Shown here: one piece after another, positions 58,277-62,633 of the stretch
Layout of the letters: the number at the start of each line of letters is the position of its first letter
How positions within the stretch are numbered: the first letter of the stretch is position 1
Virus record (IMG/VR): IMGVR_UViG_3300011577_000001
Origin: a virus
Lineage: Duplodnaviria > Caudoviricetes
Direction: 5' to 3' (one strand)
DNA length: 64,000 nucleotides
The notes under the pieces: generated by a model
Told to the model about the DNA's origin: nothing
Databases searched by the model: none
Seen by the model: only the letters and a program-made list of their open reading frames with translations
Position numbers and translations under genes: made by a program

Positions 58277-58376
58277 AGGGGTCCCCTGATGGATTCGAAC
58301 CACCGACCGTCGCATCCATTCTGTCCCAGGTTTGGACCAAGATGCACAACTCTAACCGACTGAGTTTAAGGAGACC
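58277..58376 (-). ncRNA. tRNA-like RNA with expanded anticodon arm
   Basis: 8-bp acceptor GGTCTCCT/AGGGGACC, D arm AACTC..GGTTA-GAGTT, T arm GGTGG-TTCGAAT-CCATC; 24-nt insert between TGCATC and GATGCG. Confidence 0.7.
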
Positions 58377-58541: not shown

Positions 58542-58747
58542 GAAAATCAAGCCAGGGCTATTCCCTGGAGTCACTCCCATGGCTAGGCACCATGACCGAT
58601 TAGAGCGAGGTCCTAAGCGAAACCGATCGGCACGGTTACTCGCTTACTCTTTCGAGTACGGATGTCTAGGCGTCTCGTTGTGTGAGCAACGATCCACTCG
58701 CCCGCAGGACAGGGCCACCAGCAGGGCAGGCGCTTGGTGTTCCTTGG

Positions 58748-58843
58748 TCAGGCTTTCGCCCGAGACAGCAGTTTCAGCATTCCTTTCGGGATATGCTTAG
58801 TCTTCGCTTTACGACGAGGACTGTAGAACGGAAAACCAGGCAT
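58748..58843 (-). CDS. 31-aa basic peptide MPGFPFYSPRRKAKTKHIPKGMLKLLSRAKA
   Basis: Preceded by CTAAGAAGGA, the same RBS used by the genes starting at 19651 and 20392. Confidence 0.5.
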   Translation of the reverse strand: MPGFPFYSPRRKAKTKHIPKGMLKLLSRAKA

Positions 58844-58864
58844 GGCTCTCTCCTTCTTAGAAAG

Positions 58865-58952
58865 TGGCAGTAGGTGAGAGATTCGAACTCTCGTGGCTGT
58901 TACACCAACACGCTTTCCAGGCGTGCCTTTTCGACCGCTCAAGCAACCTACT
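58865..58952 (-). tRNA. trnS: tRNA-Ser(GGA)
   Basis: CACGC-CT-GGA-AA-GCGTG, long variable arm, GCCA. Confidence 0.93.
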
Positions 58953-58970: not shown

Positions 58971-59125
58971 TTCAATCAATACCCGGTGTGTGGTATCTTT
59001 TCGTTTACAGATCTGGTGGCCCAGCCAGGATTTCGGGTTGTACCTGGAATGCTACCTTGGAGGGTAGAGTTATACCTTTCGGCGTTTTTAACTATTGGGC
59101 CTTTCTTACCACACCACTGATTGAA
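58971..59125 (-). ncRNA. Cloverleaf-in-a-stem RNA, copy 1
   Basis: Outer stem TTCAATCAGT..GTGTGGTA/TACCACAC..ATTGATTGAA encloses a tRNA-like unit at 59014-59101 ending GGCC-ACCA. Confidence 0.6.
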
Positions 59126-59148
59126 TCCCGCGAGGGAACTTCCAAACA

Positions 59149-59304
59149 GATAGACAAGATTCCTTTGTAACGCGTATTGTATTCGCTCTCTTTCAAACGA
59201 GTGGCCAGGGGAGCCTTCGGACCCTACTCCCACGTGGAACCCCGGTTGGTGGGGCTGCTTTAGAGCTTTTAGCGACTGGCCTTTCTACGTTACCGCTGTC
59301 TATC
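59149..59304 (-). ncRNA. Cloverleaf-in-a-stem RNA, copy 2
   Basis: Outer stem GATAGACA..GTAACG/CGTTAC..TGTCTATC encloses GGCCAG-(three hairpins)-CTGGCC-AC at 59203-59281. Confidence 0.55.
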
Positions 59305-59307
59305 AAA

Positions 59308-59421
59308 ATCACAAGCAGTAGATTTCACCGTACCGTCGGCTGTGATGTTACTTTCTACTTGCCTAGGCTTTCGCCTTGATTCCCTGCATCCAGACTCGCG
59401 TTACTGGATACTGCTTGTGAT
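59308..59421 (-). ncRNA. Structured RNA closed by a perfect 13-bp stem
   Basis: ATCACAAGCAGTA/TACTGCTTGTGAT; inner TCCAG/CTGGA and AGGC-GAAA-GCCT. Confidence 0.5.
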
Positions 59422-59463
59422 CTTTGTCAACCATCTTGTCGAGGACGACAACACAGTCGAACA

Positions 59464-59539
59464 TGGCACGCACCCAGGGAGTCGAACCCCGAACCTACGG
59501 ATTTGGAATCCGTTGCTCTGCCAATTGAGCTAGGCACGT
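59464..59539 (-). tRNA. trnW: tRNA-Trp(CCA)
   Basis: ACGGA-TT-CCA-AA-TCCGT; canonical D and T arms; CCA. Confidence 0.93.
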
Positions 59540-60010: not shown

Positions 60011-60646
60011 TTATTCAGAACGACGGTTGCGTTGGCCGTACTCGATGCGAAGAACCGCGAACAGCTCAACCGAATTCTCGGCAGCAGATGAACGCGTTGG
60101 CATGCAACCCCATTTCTGGGTGTCAACTTGGATGTTGACGTGTTGCTTACCGTTGAGGCGATCCGCAAAGGTCTTCAAGCGAGTCTCAGTACGGTGTCCC
60201 GGTACTTCGACGACGTTGCTCTTGACGACCAACCCATCAGCAGTCTCCAGGTGAACGACTTCCACCGAGAAGATAGCATCAGGACCCTCCAACACGGCGC
60301 CGGTTTCACCAGCCAACGTGAAGAGGTTTTGTTCAACGCCGTTCAAAGGAACGCGCACGTCAACCTTGGCAACGTAATCCTCAGCATCAAGGACTACCCA
60401 GTCGTCGGCAAGGATGTCGGACTGAGAAGCAACCCACGGGACAAAATCACCGTTGTGCGCTTTCAGACCCAGCCAAGGTCGCAGAGTCGGTGCAGGGTCC
60501 TTACGAACGTTGAGACCAACGGTGCGAGCACCCACGTCATAATGGCCAGAGCCAACCATGACGACCCACATGCCTTTACCGTTCCAGCCTTCGCGTGTGG
60601 CGCGAGAGCCATGCTTCAAAGCCGTAAGGGCTTGACCGAACTCCAT
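60011..60646 (-). CDS. tad2: Tad2/DUF2829 anti-defence sponge domain fused to a ~125-aa domain
   Basis: MEFGQALTALKHG.RATREGWNGKGMWV...PWVASQSDILADDW; SD CAGGAG before ATG 60646. Confidence 0.8.
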   Translation of the reverse strand: MEFGQALTALKHGSRATREGWNGKGMWVVMVGSGHYDVGARTVGLNVRKDPAPTLRPWLGLKAHNGDFVPWVASQSDILADDWVVLDAEDYVAKVDVRVPLNGVEQNLFTLAGETGAVLEGPDAIFSVEVVHLETADGLVVKSNVVEVPGHRTETRLKTFADRLNGKQHVNIQVDTQKWGCMPTRSSAAENSVELFAVLRIEYGQRNRRSE

Positions 60647-60667
60647 GTGAAGCTCCTGTTGTGAATG

Positions 60668-60753
60668 TGGCGGTGGGCGAAGGATTCGAACCTTCGGGGC
60701 CGCAACCCTCTCCCTTAGCAAGGGAGTGCGATAGACCGCTCTGCCAGCCCACC
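60668..60753 (-). tRNA. trnS: tRNA-Ser(GCU)
   Basis: CTCCC-TT-GCT-AA-GGGAG, variable arm, GCCA. Confidence 0.93.
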
Positions 60754-60776: not shown

Positions 60777-60853
60777 TGGCTGGGATAGTTGGGCTCGAAC
60801 CAACGACCTGGTGATTAACAGTCACCCGCTACTACCAACTGAGCTATATCCCA
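60777..60853 (-). tRNA. trnN: tRNA-Asn(GUU)
   Basis: GGTGA-CT-GTT-AA-TCACC; GCCA. Confidence 0.93.
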
Positions 60854-61356
60854 TTATAACGAATACCAAGAGCTACCCGACGAACCGTGTCTTTACCGAT
60901 TTCAAACTCCCGAGCAATTGCTCGATAGCTCATGGTACCGACCAGTTCAAGGATAGCCTTGACTGACTCTTCATCAAGCGCAGCATGTGGGCTGTCAAAC
61001 CCTTTCTTGCCTTCATACAAACCTAAGGCTTGCGCATGATCAATATTACCTTGATGCGTTACCCACTCCAAGTTATCCCACCGGTTATTTGTCTTATCCG
61101 TGTCCTTATGGTTCACGAAGGGAAGATTCAACGGGTTAGGGACAAAAGCCTTGGCCACTTGTACATGAGCCCTTAAACAGAACGACTTACCTTTCCTTCC
61201 TCCTATCTTGGAGGCGTGAGTAAGATAGCCATTATGGTTGGGCGTCAGTGCCAAATCTTGGAACGTGCGAATGCTAAACAGTGTCCCGAAATTGCCGATC
61301 ATGAAGAGATCAGGGTAGTCAGGACATTCCGTGAAGACTTCAAATTCATACGACAT
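60844..61356 (-). CDS. HNH homing endonuclease (I-HmuI-like, C-terminal HTH)
   Basis: HVQVAKAFVPN..FVNHKDTDKTNNRWDNLEWVT..N..HA; stop codon lies inside tRNA-Asn. Confidence 0.9.
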   Translation of the reverse strand: MSYEFEVFTECPDYPDLFMIGNFGTLFSIRTFQDLALTPNHNGYLTHASKIGGRKGKSFCLRAHVQVAKAFVPNPLNLPFVNHKDTDKTNNRWDNLEWVTHQGNIDHAQALGLYEGKKGFDSPHAALDEESVKAILELVGTMSYRAIAREFEIGKDTVRRVALGIRYNGI

Positions 61357-62499: not shown

Positions 62500-62633
62500 T
62501 GGCCCCGCTACGTGGACTCGAACCACGGACCTCCCGCTGGCACGCGCATTCAAACGTCATCACTGCCGGAAGGGCTGCTAGCGACGTAACCGCATGTCTA
62601 ACGAGTGCTCTAACCAACTGAGCTATAGCCGGG
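62500..62633 (-). ncRNA. tRNA body whose anticodon loop is replaced by a 63-nt structured extension
   Basis: TAGCTCAGTTGGTTAGAGCA D arm, AGGTC-CGTGG-TTCGAGT-CCACG T arm, GCCA end; insert between CTCGT and GCGGG. Confidence 0.8.

What the first reader, a model, noticed from the sequence alone, without database searches (positions are those of the whole stretch)
58971..59304. Twin ~155-nt RNAs: a remodelled tRNA cloverleaf locked inside an outer stem
Seen: two adjacent units (155 and 156 nt) differ in sequence but share architecture: outer helix, GTA(A)GAAA, GGCC stem, hairpin 1 opening TAAAA, hairpin 2 with a CCAA loop, short linker, hairpin 3 with an enlarged CCGAA loop, GGCC-AC, a CGAA-containing linker, outer helix. 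Copy 1 reads as a tRNA: GGCCCAA-TA-GTTA..GGTA-TAAC-T-CTACC-CTCCAA-GGTAG-CATT-CCAGG..CCTGG-CTGGGCC-ACCA, with a 6-nt anticodon loop and expanded D and T loops. Helices are kept while their sequences change, which is internal covariation. Inference: an undescribed tRNA-derived ncRNA family (decoy, caged precursor or ribozyme).
Basis: partly seen in the sequence, partly recalled or inferred. Interest (0 to 1): 0.85.

Follow-up and report, generated by a model that had tools for sequence, protein, structure and literature searches.

The report
Caged tRNA-like RNAs in jumbo phage
Two neighbouring ~156-nt genes in the tRNA cluster of an uncultivated 240-kb phage encode a previously undescribed, structure-conserved RNA that is a remodelled, non-decoding tRNA cloverleaf shut inside a long closing helix; its function is unknown and the family is so far confined to a handful of related phage contigs.

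Summary
On the minus strand, the strand of the 8 tRNA genes, unit u1 (58971-59126) and unit u2 (59149-59304) each fold into a two-part closing helix around a closed four-arm cloverleaf.

- **Relation of the two units:** they are 44% identical. A covariance model built only from u1 orthologues finds u2 at E about 1e-5.
- **Orthologues:** u1 occurs in 6 other IMG/VR jumbo-phage contigs and 7 metagenome contigs (70-88% identity). They give 13 compensatory pairs in an unfitted alignment and 24 of 44 pairs once u2 is added. Shifted controls give 5 or fewer.
- **tRNA descent:** u1 keeps U8, A9, G10, A14, GGUA at the D-loop end, tRNA-like stem lengths and linkers, G53-C61, G1-C72 and N73-C74-C75.
- **Not a decoding tRNA:** the anticodon-like loop is 4-7 nt (UUCG in one phage), the T loop is 13 nt, and ARAGORN and Rfam tRNA do not call it.
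- **Known families:** no Rfam family matches. It is not YrlA, whose arm order differs, and the phage has no Ro60 gene.

My reading is a stable tRNA-derived RNA cut out by processing of the flanking tRNAs. It probably acts as a ligand or decoy for a tRNA-recognising factor. That function is inference; no RNA data were available.

The parts
58971..59126 (-). Unit u1, whole RNA module (about 156 nt): closing helix plus closed tRNA-like cloverleaf
   Evidence: MFE fold; model R1 at 189 bits; orthologues in 6 viral and 7 metagenome contigs
59118..59125 (-). u1 closing helix P1a, 5' strand (UUCAAUCA); pairs with 58971-58978
   Evidence: Covarying pairs A-U/G-C; coordinates
59108..59117 (-). u1 closing helix P1b, 5' strand (GUGGUGUGGU, one bulged G); pairs with 58986-58994
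   Evidence: RNAalifold register; 3 covarying pairs
59102..59107 (-). u1 A-rich 5' linker (AAGAAA) just upstream of the acceptor-like G1; putative RNase P leader
   Evidence: Sequence. Purine-rich in all copies. Cleavage is inferred only.
59095..59101 (-). u1 acceptor-like stem, 5' strand (GGCCCAA); pairs with 59018-59024 (6 bp plus an A-C mismatch)
   Evidence: Double changes at 2 of 6 pairs among 5 u1 orthologues, at 4 of 6 once u2 is added
59069..59092 (-). u1 D-like arm: GUUA/UAAC stem, AAAAAC asymmetric loop, nested GCC-GAAA-GGU hairpin; keeps the tRNA GGUA end of the D loop
   Evidence: Invariant in 7 of 8 orthologues. The nested hairpin differs in L039 and carries GUAA in L038.
59052..59067 (-). 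u1 anticodon-like hairpin (CUACC-CUCCAA-GGUAG), 6-nt loop
   Evidence: The stem covaries. The loop is CUCCAA, CUCCGA, UUCG, CGUCCAA or UACAAA in orthologues.
59025..59047 (-). u1 T-like arm: 5-bp stem closed by G-C, invariant 13-nt loop UACAACCCGAAAU
   Evidence: Stem covaries (C-G to U-A, G-C); loop invariant in all u1 copies
59014..59024 (-). u1 acceptor-like 3' strand (CUGGGCC) followed by ACCA (N73-C74-C75-A76 equivalent)
   Evidence: CC invariant in all 8 u1 copies; flanking positions vary: ACCA, ACCG, GCCU, GCCA, UCCU
58995..59013 (-). u1 variable A/U-rich 3' linker
   Evidence: Length and sequence vary among orthologues
58979..58985 (-). u1 3'-strand bulge of the closing helix (CGGGUAU); GGGU proposed to pair with ACCC of the T-like loop
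   Evidence: Invariant in u1. u2 has GGA(A)U opposite GUCC. 100% pairable in 10 sequences, with one double and one single change. Tentative.
59149..59304 (-). Unit u2, paralogous module (156 nt), 44% identical to u1
   Evidence: MFE fold; R1 at 27.8 bits, E about 1e-5; R2 at 118 bits; one orthologue in L003/L014, about 85% identical in the model alignment and 90% by blastn
59276..59281 (-). u2 acceptor-like stem, 5' strand (GGCCAG); pairs with 59203-59208 (CUGGCC), followed by AC only
59209..59231 (-). u2 T-like arm: GGGAG/CUCCC stem with 13-nt loop UAGGGUCCGAAGG
59254..59273 (-). u2 D-like arm (GCU-AAAA-[GCU-CUAA-AGC]-AGC)
59240..59254 (-). u2 anticodon-like hairpin (CCCC-ACCAACC-GGGG)
59287..59304 (-). 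u2 closing helix, 5' strand (GAUAGACAG-CG-GUAACGU); pairs with 59149-59157 and 59167-59173. 3' bulge AAAGGAAUC at 59158-59166.
   Evidence: G-C to A-U compensatory change between the window and L003 copies.
58865..58952 (-). tRNA-Ser(GGA) 18 nt downstream of u1; its 5' maturation would set the 3' end of u1
   Evidence: ARAGORN. A tRNA-Ser follows u1 within 7-18 nt in every contig checked.

Best explanation
u1 and u2 are paralogous genes for a new family of tRNA-derived, non-decoding structured RNAs.

Origin. A tRNA gene in the phage's tRNA operon was remodelled in three ways. The anticodon loop lost its identity. The D loop gained a nested hairpin. The T loop grew to 13 nt. The whole cloverleaf was also enclosed by a 16-18-bp closing helix made from its 5' and 3' flanks.

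Biogenesis. The RNA is co-transcribed with the tRNAs. It is released when the neighbouring tRNAs are matured: 3' processing of the upstream tRNA and RNase P cleavage of the downstream tRNA-Ser. The closing helix then protects both ends from exonucleases.

Fold. The invariant T-like loop probably docks on the invariant 3' bulge of the closing helix (ACCC:GGGU in u1, GUCC:GGA-U in u2). This would give a compact particle in which the tRNA elbow is replaced by a new surface.

Function. u1 keeps exactly the acceptor-end determinants read by bacterial RNase P (G1-C72, R73, C74, C75, with position 76 free). Its most likely role is as a stable ligand, decoy or substrate for a tRNA-recognising factor, such as RNase P or a tRNA-targeting host defence or enzyme. 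It is unlikely to act in translation.

Sub-probabilities:
- real, structurally constrained RNA family: about 0.95
- descended from a tRNA: about 0.85
- non-decoding: about 0.9
- released by tRNA processing as a stable RNA: about 0.6
- trans-acting ligand or decoy for a tRNA-binding factor: about 0.3
For: Shown:
- Same strand and operon as the 8 tRNAs.
- The fold is recovered by MFE, by RNAalifold on an unfitted alignment (13 of 36 pairs compensatory), and by pair counts. Those counts are 95.6% paired with 9 double-change pairs against 0-1 in shifted controls, and 24 of 44 against 5 or fewer with u2 included.
- u2 is found by a u1-only model at E about 1e-5.
- tRNA marks in u1, read from the sequence: U8-A9-G10, A14, GGUA before the 3' D stem, 1 nt between the D and anticodon stems, a 5-bp anticodon stem, a 4-nt variable region, a 5-bp T stem closed by G-C, and the acceptor 3' strand abutting the T stem.
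- The best non-family matches of R1's inner part (model positions 32 to about 125) are genuine tRNAs.
- Non-decoding: the loop is 4-7 nt, including a UUCG tetraloop, and neither ARAGORN nor RF00005 calls it.
- C74-C75 are invariant in 8 u1 copies, while N73 and position 76 vary.
- In 4 of 8 contigs an upstream tRNA ends 0-2 nt from the closing helix. In all contigs checked a tRNA-Ser starts 7-18 nt after it.
- The invariant blocks are the D-like arm, the T-like loop and the bulged region of the closing helix, while the other helices covary. That pattern fits a tertiary core or a binding surface.
- The RNA island also carries a Tad2-like anti-defence gene.

Inferred: the processing route, stability, docking and ligand or decoy role.
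Against:
- The family is seen only in one small clade of uncultivated phages, so most covariation comes from few lineages.
- The A5 alignment behind one search was fitted to the model.
- The docking helix rests on a single u1/u2 contrast. An alternative partner exists in u1: the D-loop GGU could pair with ACC of the T loop, as in a normal tRNA elbow.
- u2 lacks the CC after its acceptor-like stem, so the RNase P-type signature is not general.
- The u1/tRNA-Ser adjacency reflects shared ancestry, because it is one orthologous tRNA-Ser gene. It is therefore not independent evidence.
- No phage protein partner was identified.
Confidence: 0.55

Rival explanations
1. Processing punctuation only. 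The tRNA-like body is a 't-element' that recruits RNase P (and RNase E/Z) to cut the long tRNA-operon transcript. The closing helix is a processing stalk, possibly an RNase III site, that brings the two ends together. The excised RNA has no function of its own.
For: - It sits between tRNAs with almost no spacer.
- It keeps G1-C72 and N73-C74-C75.
- It has A-rich single-stranded linkers typical of RNase P leaders and RNase E sites.
- Other spacers in this island, and in related phages, also fold into units closed by terminal helices.
Against: - Genuine tRNAs lie tRNA-to-tRNA only 7-23 nt apart elsewhere in this cluster and need no such element.
- The invariant 13-nt T-like loop, D-like arm and helix bulge are conserved far more strongly than a mere cleavage signal requires.
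- The closing helix is only 16-18 bp and interrupted, which is short for RNase III.
Confidence: 0.2
2. Self-contained catalytic or ligand-sensing RNA (ribozyme or aptamer). The compact fold with invariant loops would form an active site or binding pocket.
For: Invariant unpaired nucleotides are clustered in three loops. There are GNRA tetraloops and A-rich junction strands, and a possible loop-bulge tertiary helix.
Against: No match to any ribozyme or riboswitch family in Rfam, even at E <= 10. No hammerhead, twister or HDV-type core was seen on reading. It is not placed in a 5' UTR; it is flanked by tRNAs.
Confidence: 0.07
3. An aberrant but chargeable tRNA-like RNA. After RNase P and 3' trimming, the inner cloverleaf receives CCA and an amino acid and acts outside normal decoding, for example as an aminoacyl donor or a ribosome-binding factor like the tRNA-like domain of tmRNA.
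For: A near-7-bp acceptor stem with N73-CC(A). One lineage has a 7-nt loop, CGUCCAA, resembling a Gly-UCC anticodon loop. M. smegmatis YrlA is cleaved by RNase P and receives CCA (PMC4201824).
Against: - The 3' end is buried in the closing helix 25-30 nt downstream.
- Position 76 is not conserved, and u2 has no CC.
- Loop length varies from 4 to 7 nt, with no U33.
- The elbow used by EF-Tu, the ribosome and synthetases is remodelled.
- The phage has no CCA-adding enzyme.
Confidence: 0.06
4. A Y-RNA-like (YrlA/Yrn1-type) RNA that binds a host Ro60/Rsr protein through the closing helix and presents a tRNA-like module to an effector such as PNPase.
For: The overall design is the same: a long stem formed by the 5' and 3' ends with an asymmetric bulge, plus a tRNA-like domain in the loop. 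Two different copies lie side by side, as with YrlA/YrlB (PMC4201824).
Against: - No TROVE/Ro60 gene in the phage.
- No Rfam family of any kind, Y-RNA-type models included, matches even at E <= 10.
- The GNCGAAN0-1G motif is absent from the 5' strand of the stem.
- The arm order is acceptor-D-anticodon-T, not T-AS-D.
- The T and D loops are non-canonical, whereas those of YrlA are canonical.
Confidence: 0.04
5. Decaying tRNA pseudogenes or chance structure with no selected function.
For: A narrow phylogenetic range. u2's MFE z-score is modest: -1.9, with 9 of 200 shuffles as good.
Against: Helices are maintained by many compensatory changes while loops stay invariant across copies 70-88% identical. 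The architecture is kept between paralogues only 44% identical.
Confidence: 0.03

Closest known systems
Phage T4 small stable RNAs, species 1 and 2 (rnaC, rnaD)
   Same: Two adjacent non-tRNA RNAs of 139 and 119 nt, encoded on the tRNA strand at the end of the phage tRNA cluster (annotation of AF158101). rnaC carries a tRNA-like T arm and a terminal stem. Their function is unknown. Release by tRNA-processing enzymes is established knowledge for T4; I did not test it here.
   Different: No sequence or structure homology: R1 hits only T4 tRNA-Arg in that locus, not rnaC or rnaD. T4 rnaC keeps a canonical UUCGAAU T loop. It has no second, outer closing helix around a complete cloverleaf.
Bacterial and phage Y RNAs with a tRNA-like domain (YrlA; D. 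radiodurans Yrn1), PMC4201824
   Same: A long helix formed by the RNA's two ends encloses a tRNA-mimicking module. Copies often occur as two neighbouring, dissimilar RNAs. M. smegmatis YrlA is an RNase P substrate.
   Different: YrlA lies next to rsr, carries GNCGAAN0-1G in the stem, has canonical T and D loops, and has permuted arm order (T, acceptor-like stem-loop, D). None of these holds here.
Canonical tRNA (Rfam RF00005)
   Same: Cloverleaf topology, stem lengths, inter-stem linkers, U8/A9/G10/A14, the GGUA end of the D loop, G53-C61, G1-C72 and N73-CC.
   Different: A 4-7-nt anticodon-like loop without U33, a 13-nt T loop, and a 16-17-nt D loop with a nested hairpin. Both ends are locked in an extra helix. 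Not detected by ARAGORN or RF00005.
tRNA-like processing signals (plant mitochondrial t-elements; MALAT1 mascRNA). Cited from general knowledge, not tested here.
   Same: A non-decoding tRNA-shaped element embedded in a longer transcript that can be recognised by RNase P/Z.
   Different: Those are eukaryotic or organellar, lack an enclosing helix, and do not have invariant enlarged loops.
Large ornate phage-associated RNAs found next to tRNAs (GOLLD, ROOL). Cited from general knowledge.
   Same: Structured RNAs of unknown function that cluster with tRNA genes in phage genomes.
   Different: They are 4-5 times larger, are not tRNA-shaped, and do not match here.

Membership tests
tRNA (RF00005) | Cloverleaf with 7/4/5/5-bp stems and standard linkers | tested here: met
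   u1 has 6 bp plus a 7:66 mismatch, then 4, 5 and 5 bp, with linkers of 2, 1, 4 and 0 nt. u2 is approximate, with a 3-bp D stem.
tRNA (RF00005) | 7-nt anticodon loop with U33 and a purine at 37 | tested here: not met
   Loops are CUCCAA, CUCCGA, UUCG, CGUCCAA and UACAAA; u2 has ACCAACC.
tRNA (RF00005) | 7-nt T loop (UUCRANY) and a D loop of 7-11 nt | tested here: not met
   The T-like loop is 13 nt. The D-like loop is 16-17 nt with a nested hairpin.
tRNA (RF00005) | Detected by the tRNA covariance model or ARAGORN | tested here: not met
   No call at 58971-59304 by ARAGORN or by cmscan at E <= 10.
YrlA / bacterial Y RNA | Encoded next to a Ro60 (TROVE) gene | tested here: not met
   PF05731 is absent from the 240-kb phage record, while the controls ring. 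The host genome is unknown.
YrlA / bacterial Y RNA | Ro60-binding stem with GNCGAAN0-1G on its 5' strand | tested here: not met
   The 5' strands read UUCAAUCAGUGGUGUGGU and GAUAGACAGCGGUAACGU. The motif definition comes from PMC4201824.
YrlA / bacterial Y RNA | tRNA-like domain ordered T arm, acceptor-like stem-loop, D arm, with canonical T and D loops | tested here: not met
   The order here is acceptor 5' strand, D, anticodon-like, T, acceptor 3' strand, and the loops are non-canonical.
YrlA / bacterial Y RNA | Binding to Ro60/Rsr | not testable with these tools
   Needs immunoprecipitation.
T4 rnaC/rnaD-type stable RNAs | Non-tRNA RNA gene on the tRNA strand inside a phage tRNA cluster | tested here: met
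T4 rnaC/rnaD-type stable RNAs | Sequence or structure homology to rnaC or rnaD | tested here: not met
   R1 over the T4 locus L010 hits tRNA-Arg (12 bits) and an unrelated AT-rich stretch, not rnaC or rnaD. The folds differ.
Bacterial RNase P substrate (works-like claim) | G+1:C72, R73, C74-C75, an acceptor/T stack of about 12 bp, and a single-stranded leader | tested here: met
   u1 has G-C at the first pair in 7 of 8 copies; A or G at position 73 in 7 of 8; CC invariant; 6(+1)+5 bp; and a 4-6-nt A-rich leader. u2 has only AC after the stem.
Bacterial RNase P substrate (works-like claim) | Actual cleavage at G+1 | not testable with these tools
   Needs an M1 RNA or holoenzyme assay, or 5'-end mapping.

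The most novel reading that the evidence does not exclude
A self-caged tRNA mimic. The closing helix folds back and base-pairs with the enlarged T loop. This hides the tRNA elbow while displaying an RNase P-type acceptor end. The particle would then act as an RNA-only decoy or inhibitor for a host tRNA-recognising enzyme or tRNA-targeting immune effector during infection by a phiKZ-like jumbo phage. The two paralogues, with their different loop/bulge sequences, would be tuned to different targets. That would make it an RNA-based counter-defence built on a tRNA scaffold.
Probability: 0.12. Interest if true: 0.8.

Novelty: new variant of a known kind. Interest (0 to 1): 0.5.

Why it matters
Phage tRNA clusters have been known for decades to carry stable RNAs of unknown function, such as T4 species 1 and 2. 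tRNA mimicry is also a recurring strategy, seen in Y RNAs, tmRNA and viral tRNA-like structures.

This family adds a clean, covariation-supported case with an unusual design. A complete cloverleaf has lost decoding features and grown new invariant loops, and it is enclosed by a second helix.

It sits in a 5-kb island where nearly every inter-tRNA spacer folds into a closed unit, and where a Tad2-like anti-defence gene is embedded. This suggests that this lineage of jumbo phages uses the tRNA operon as an expression platform for a set of RNAs.

If a partner were found, it could explain a class of phage RNAs that has resisted explanation. It could also provide a natural scaffold for expressing stable RNAs.

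The value is limited for now by the narrow distribution (uncultivated phages only) and by the absence of any expression data.

Tried and rejected
- **Rfam:** gathering thresholds on the whole window, then E <= 10 on 4.2 kb and on 471 nt. Only the true tRNAs and noise appeared.
- **GenBank phages:** blastn ('distant') with the 511-nt region found no match.
- **Nearest isolates by DNA polymerase** (Xanthomonas phages Xoo-sp14, LucasX and RTH11; Burkholderia phage FLC9; 42-44% aa identity), plus a 39%-related IMG/VR contig: R1 finds nothing.
- **Degenerate architecture patterns:**
  - The viral scan gave 26 stretches, of which only family members scored with R1.
80 loci were returned, 7 of them real u1 copies. 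The rest were chance or recurrent unrelated sequences.
- **u2-specific 17-mer:** one extra contig, shown to be chance.
- **u1 T-arm 19-mer in 596 Gb of prokaryote genomes:** one hit in Sphingomonas rustica, inside a 407-aa ORF. About 4 chance hits were expected, so I rejected it.
- **Fetching by the downstream tRNA-Ser sequence:** returned the same six contigs.
- **Wider model R2 (u1 + u2)** over five whole phage contigs: no further paralogues.
- **Phage-encoded partners:** no TROVE/Ro60, RtcB or CCA-adding/PolyA_pol domains.
- **Antisense targets** of the invariant loops in the phage genome (2 or fewer mismatches over 12-15 nt): none beyond the genes themselves and a few 12-13-nt matches at the 2-mismatch limit, which I take as chance.
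- **Coding reading** of the overlapping 85-aa ORF: rejected.
- **Motifs considered by eye and dropped:** a sarcin-ricin/bulged-G reading of the T-like loop, a K-turn in the helix bulge, and a hammerhead core. The sequences do not fit in both paralogues.
- **Resemblance of u2's GGUCCGAAGG to the 5' end of human Y1 RNA** (recalled from memory): treated as chance, because here it lies in a hairpin loop rather than in the closing stem.
Full report
**Setting.** The window is part of a 240-kb IMG/VR viral contig (G000:C1:147699-211698). Its DNA polymerase is most similar, at 39-44% amino-acid identity, to those of jumbo phages of Xanthomonas, Burkholderia, Ralstonia, Pseudomonas and Erwinia. I take these to be phiKZ-like from general knowledge; the records carry no family name. 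The finding lies in a tRNA cluster whose 8 ARAGORN-called tRNAs are all on the minus strand. It sits between tRNA-Trp (59464-59539) and tRNA-Ser(GGA) (58865-58952). All structures below are read on the minus strand.

**Observation.**
- Unit u1 (59126 to 58971) folds at -44.8 kcal/mol, z = -2.9, with no shuffle as good.
- Unit u2 (59304 to 59149) folds at -48.7 kcal/mol, z = -1.9, with 9 of 200 shuffles as good.
- Both MFE structures show a closing helix in two segments with a 3'-strand bulge, and an A-rich 5' linker.
- Inside is a 6-bp GGCC-started stem that encloses three hairpins, followed by a variable 3' linker.
- The two units are separated by 22 nt and are only 44% identical.

**Are the twins related beyond chance?** I built covariance model R1 only from five u1 orthologues. 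With filters off it finds u2 full-length at 27.8 bits, E about 1e-5. It finds the u2 orthologue of a second phage at 26.8 bits. The shared architecture is therefore statistically supported, and the units are best read as diverged paralogues.

**Homologues.**
- Fetching relatives through the DNA polymerase and through exact or degenerate DNA patterns gave u1 in six further IMG/VR contigs. These are L003/L007, L004/L009, L006, L008, L020 and L031. R1 scores run from 109 to 201 bits.
- One metagenome scan added seven near-identical copies among 80 returned loci.
- u2 occurs only in the window's phage and in L003.
- A broader model, R2 (u1 + u2), finds no further copies in five whole contigs.
- The four closest isolates and a 39%-related contig have none.
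- The family is therefore real but narrowly distributed.

**Structure support.**
- On the MAFFT alignment of five u1 orthologues, 95.6% of cells pair. Nine of 41 pairs show changes on both sides, against 0-1 in every shifted control.
- RNAalifold on an independent, unfitted alignment of eight orthologues predicts the same helices. Thirteen of 36 pairs are compensatory. It gives a better register for the closing helix: 7 bp, then a 7-nt 3' bulge CGGGUAW, then 9 bp with one bulged G.
- Adding u2 gives 24 of 44 pairs with double changes, against 5 or fewer in shifted controls. That alignment was fitted to the model and so leans towards it.
- Recurrent G-U pairs fix the RNA strand.
- Length differences of -4, -3, -1 and +2 nt among orthologues, and the absence of a Pfam hit, dismiss the overlapping 85-aa ORF.

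**tRNA ancestry and loss of decoding.** Numbered as a tRNA, u1 keeps these features:
- U8, A9, G10 and A14
- GGUA immediately before the 3' D-stem strand (the G18-G19-N-A21 signature)
- one nucleotide between the D and anticodon stems
- a 5-bp anticodon stem and a 4-nt variable region
- a 5-bp T stem closed by G-C, with a loop starting with U and containing CGAA
- an acceptor 3' strand that abuts the T stem
- G1-C72, followed by N73-C74-C75

The best non-family matches of R1's inner part are genuine tRNAs, for example T4 tRNA-Arg and several tRNAs of the related loci.

The RNA is nevertheless not a tRNA.
- ARAGORN and RF00005 do not call it.
- The T loop has 13 nt.
- The D loop carries a nested hairpin.
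- The anticodon-like loop is CUCCAA, CUCCGA, CGUCCAA, UACAAA or a UUCG tetraloop in different phages, while its stem covaries.

A hairpin is being conserved, not an anticodon.

**What is conserved.** Among u1 copies that differ by up to 30%, four blocks barely change:
- the 5' strand AUCAGUGGUG and the 3' strand CACACCGGGU of the closing helix are invariant
- the T-like loop GGUACAACCCGAAAUCC is invariant
- the D-like arm is invariant in 7 of 8 copies

The acceptor-like, anticodon-like and T stems, and part of the closing helix, change by compensation. u2 has different sequences at the same places but shares a skeleton: CAG.GGU, UAAAA, UA...YCCGAA and ACA..GG.

The T-loop ACCC of u1 can pair with GGGU of the 3' bulge. 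In u2 the aligned nucleotides are GUCC and GGA(A)U. The proposed 4-bp helix is pairable in all ten sequences, with one double and one single change. This rests on a single evolutionary contrast and is tentative. In u1, the D-loop GGU is a competing partner.

**Context and biogenesis (inferred).**
- In four of eight contigs an upstream tRNA (Val, Gly or Asn) ends 0-2 nt before the closing helix.
- In every contig checked a tRNA-Ser begins 7-18 nt after it.
- Maturation of the neighbours would therefore release the unit with its ends paired.
- The tRNA-Ser is one orthologous gene whose anticodon arm is GGA or GCU in different phages. The adjacency therefore reflects synteny and is not independent evidence of coupling.
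- In L003 the order is tRNA-Trp, u2, u3, tRNA-Gly, u1, tRNA-Ser. This shows the units move as modules, like tRNA genes.
- No sigma-70-type promoter or terminator separates them.

**Mechanism.** u1 retains G1-C72, a purine at position 73 in most copies and an invariant C74-C75, while position 76 is free. This is the set read by bacterial RNase P (established knowledge of the P15-loop/CCA contact), not the set needed for charging. I therefore rank a role as a stable ligand, decoy or substrate for a tRNA-recognising factor first.

It remains open whether RNase P cuts at G1, leaving a nicked two-piece particle held by the closing helix, or is blocked by the remodelled and possibly docked elbow.

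The rivals, with their evidence, are in the Rival explanations section. They are processing punctuation only, a ribozyme or aptamer, a chargeable tRNA-like RNA, a Y-RNA-like Ro60 ligand, and decay.

Several checks bear on these rivals:
- The phage encodes no Ro60, RtcB or CCA-adding enzyme.
- The invariant loops have no extended antisense target in the phage genome.
- A Tad2-like anti-Thoeris domain protein lies 700 nt away, inside the same RNA island. That is compatible with an accessory or counter-defence region but proves nothing about the RNAs.

**Comparison with known systems.**
- The closest in context are T4 rnaC and rnaD, two adjacent stable RNAs at the end of the T4 tRNA cluster. They share neither sequence nor fold with u1 or u2.
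- The closest in design are bacterial and phage Y RNAs with a tRNA-like domain (PMC4201824). All four testable defining features of YrlA fail here.
- I file the finding as a new variant of a known kind: tRNA-derived, non-decoding stable RNAs of phage tRNA clusters.
- Searches of the paper library found no description of it.

**Limits.** All homologues come from one small clade of uncultivated phages. The function is inference.

**Earlier scan notes.** Other first-stage notes on this same genome had already flagged the RNA island and this same stretch. I checked the parts I reuse. I did not look for earlier notes on other DNA.

Noticed in passing
window 59305-59424 (-), with a further hairpin at 59425-59463: A third closed RNA unit (u3). 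A 13-bp terminal helix (59409-59421 with 59308-59320) encloses several hairpins, one of them capped by GAAA. The z-score is -5.4. A copy whose 104-nt aligned part is 99% identical exists in L003, but there it lies after u2 instead of before it.
   Followed up: partly
window 58278-58376 (-): A tRNA-shaped RNA with a canonical T arm (GGUUCGAAUCC), a D arm and an 8-bp acceptor. Its anticodon arm is expanded by a nested hairpin. It gives only a weak tRNA-Sec-model hit (20.9 bits) and is not called by ARAGORN.
   Followed up: partly
window 62500-62632 (-): A canonical D arm, T arm and encoded CCA, with a structured insert of about 73 nt where the anticodon arm should be. It could be an intron-like insert or another tRNA-scaffold RNA.
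   Followed up: partly
window 58542-58864 (-): A 323-nt spacer between two tRNA-Ser genes, rich in GAAA-capped hairpins, that folds with z = -2.7. It is partly conserved (73-83%) in three related contigs.
   Followed up: partly
window 60011-60721 (-) and 60844-61356 (-): Two protein genes lie inside the tRNA/RNA island. One is a 236-aa protein with a Pfam Tad2-like (anti-Thoeris) domain, E = 2.5e-23. The other is a 170-aa HNH endonuclease.
   Followed up: partly
window 58865-58952 (-), compared with L011, L013, L014, L015, L038 and L039: The tRNA-Ser downstream of u1 is one orthologous gene, with the same acceptor, D and T arms. Its anticodon arm reads GGA in some phages and GCU in others, which is an anticodon-arm swap.
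   Followed up: partly
L168 (Burkholderia phage FLC9), L167 (Xanthomonas phage RTH11), L169 (Xanthomonas phage LucasX): The tRNA clusters of these related isolates also have inter-tRNA spacers that fold (MFE only) into units closed by long terminal helices. One is a 150-nt element in FLC9 with a ~25-bp closing helix around three hairpins. There are also tRNA bodies carrying inserts. None matches model R1.
   Followed up: partly
L165:5943-5965 (Sphingomonas rustica contig): An exact copy of the u1 T-like hairpin loop with a compensated closing pair. It lies inside a 407-aa ORF of a high-GC genome, and about four such 19-mer hits are expected by chance, so I took it as coincidence.
   Followed up: yes
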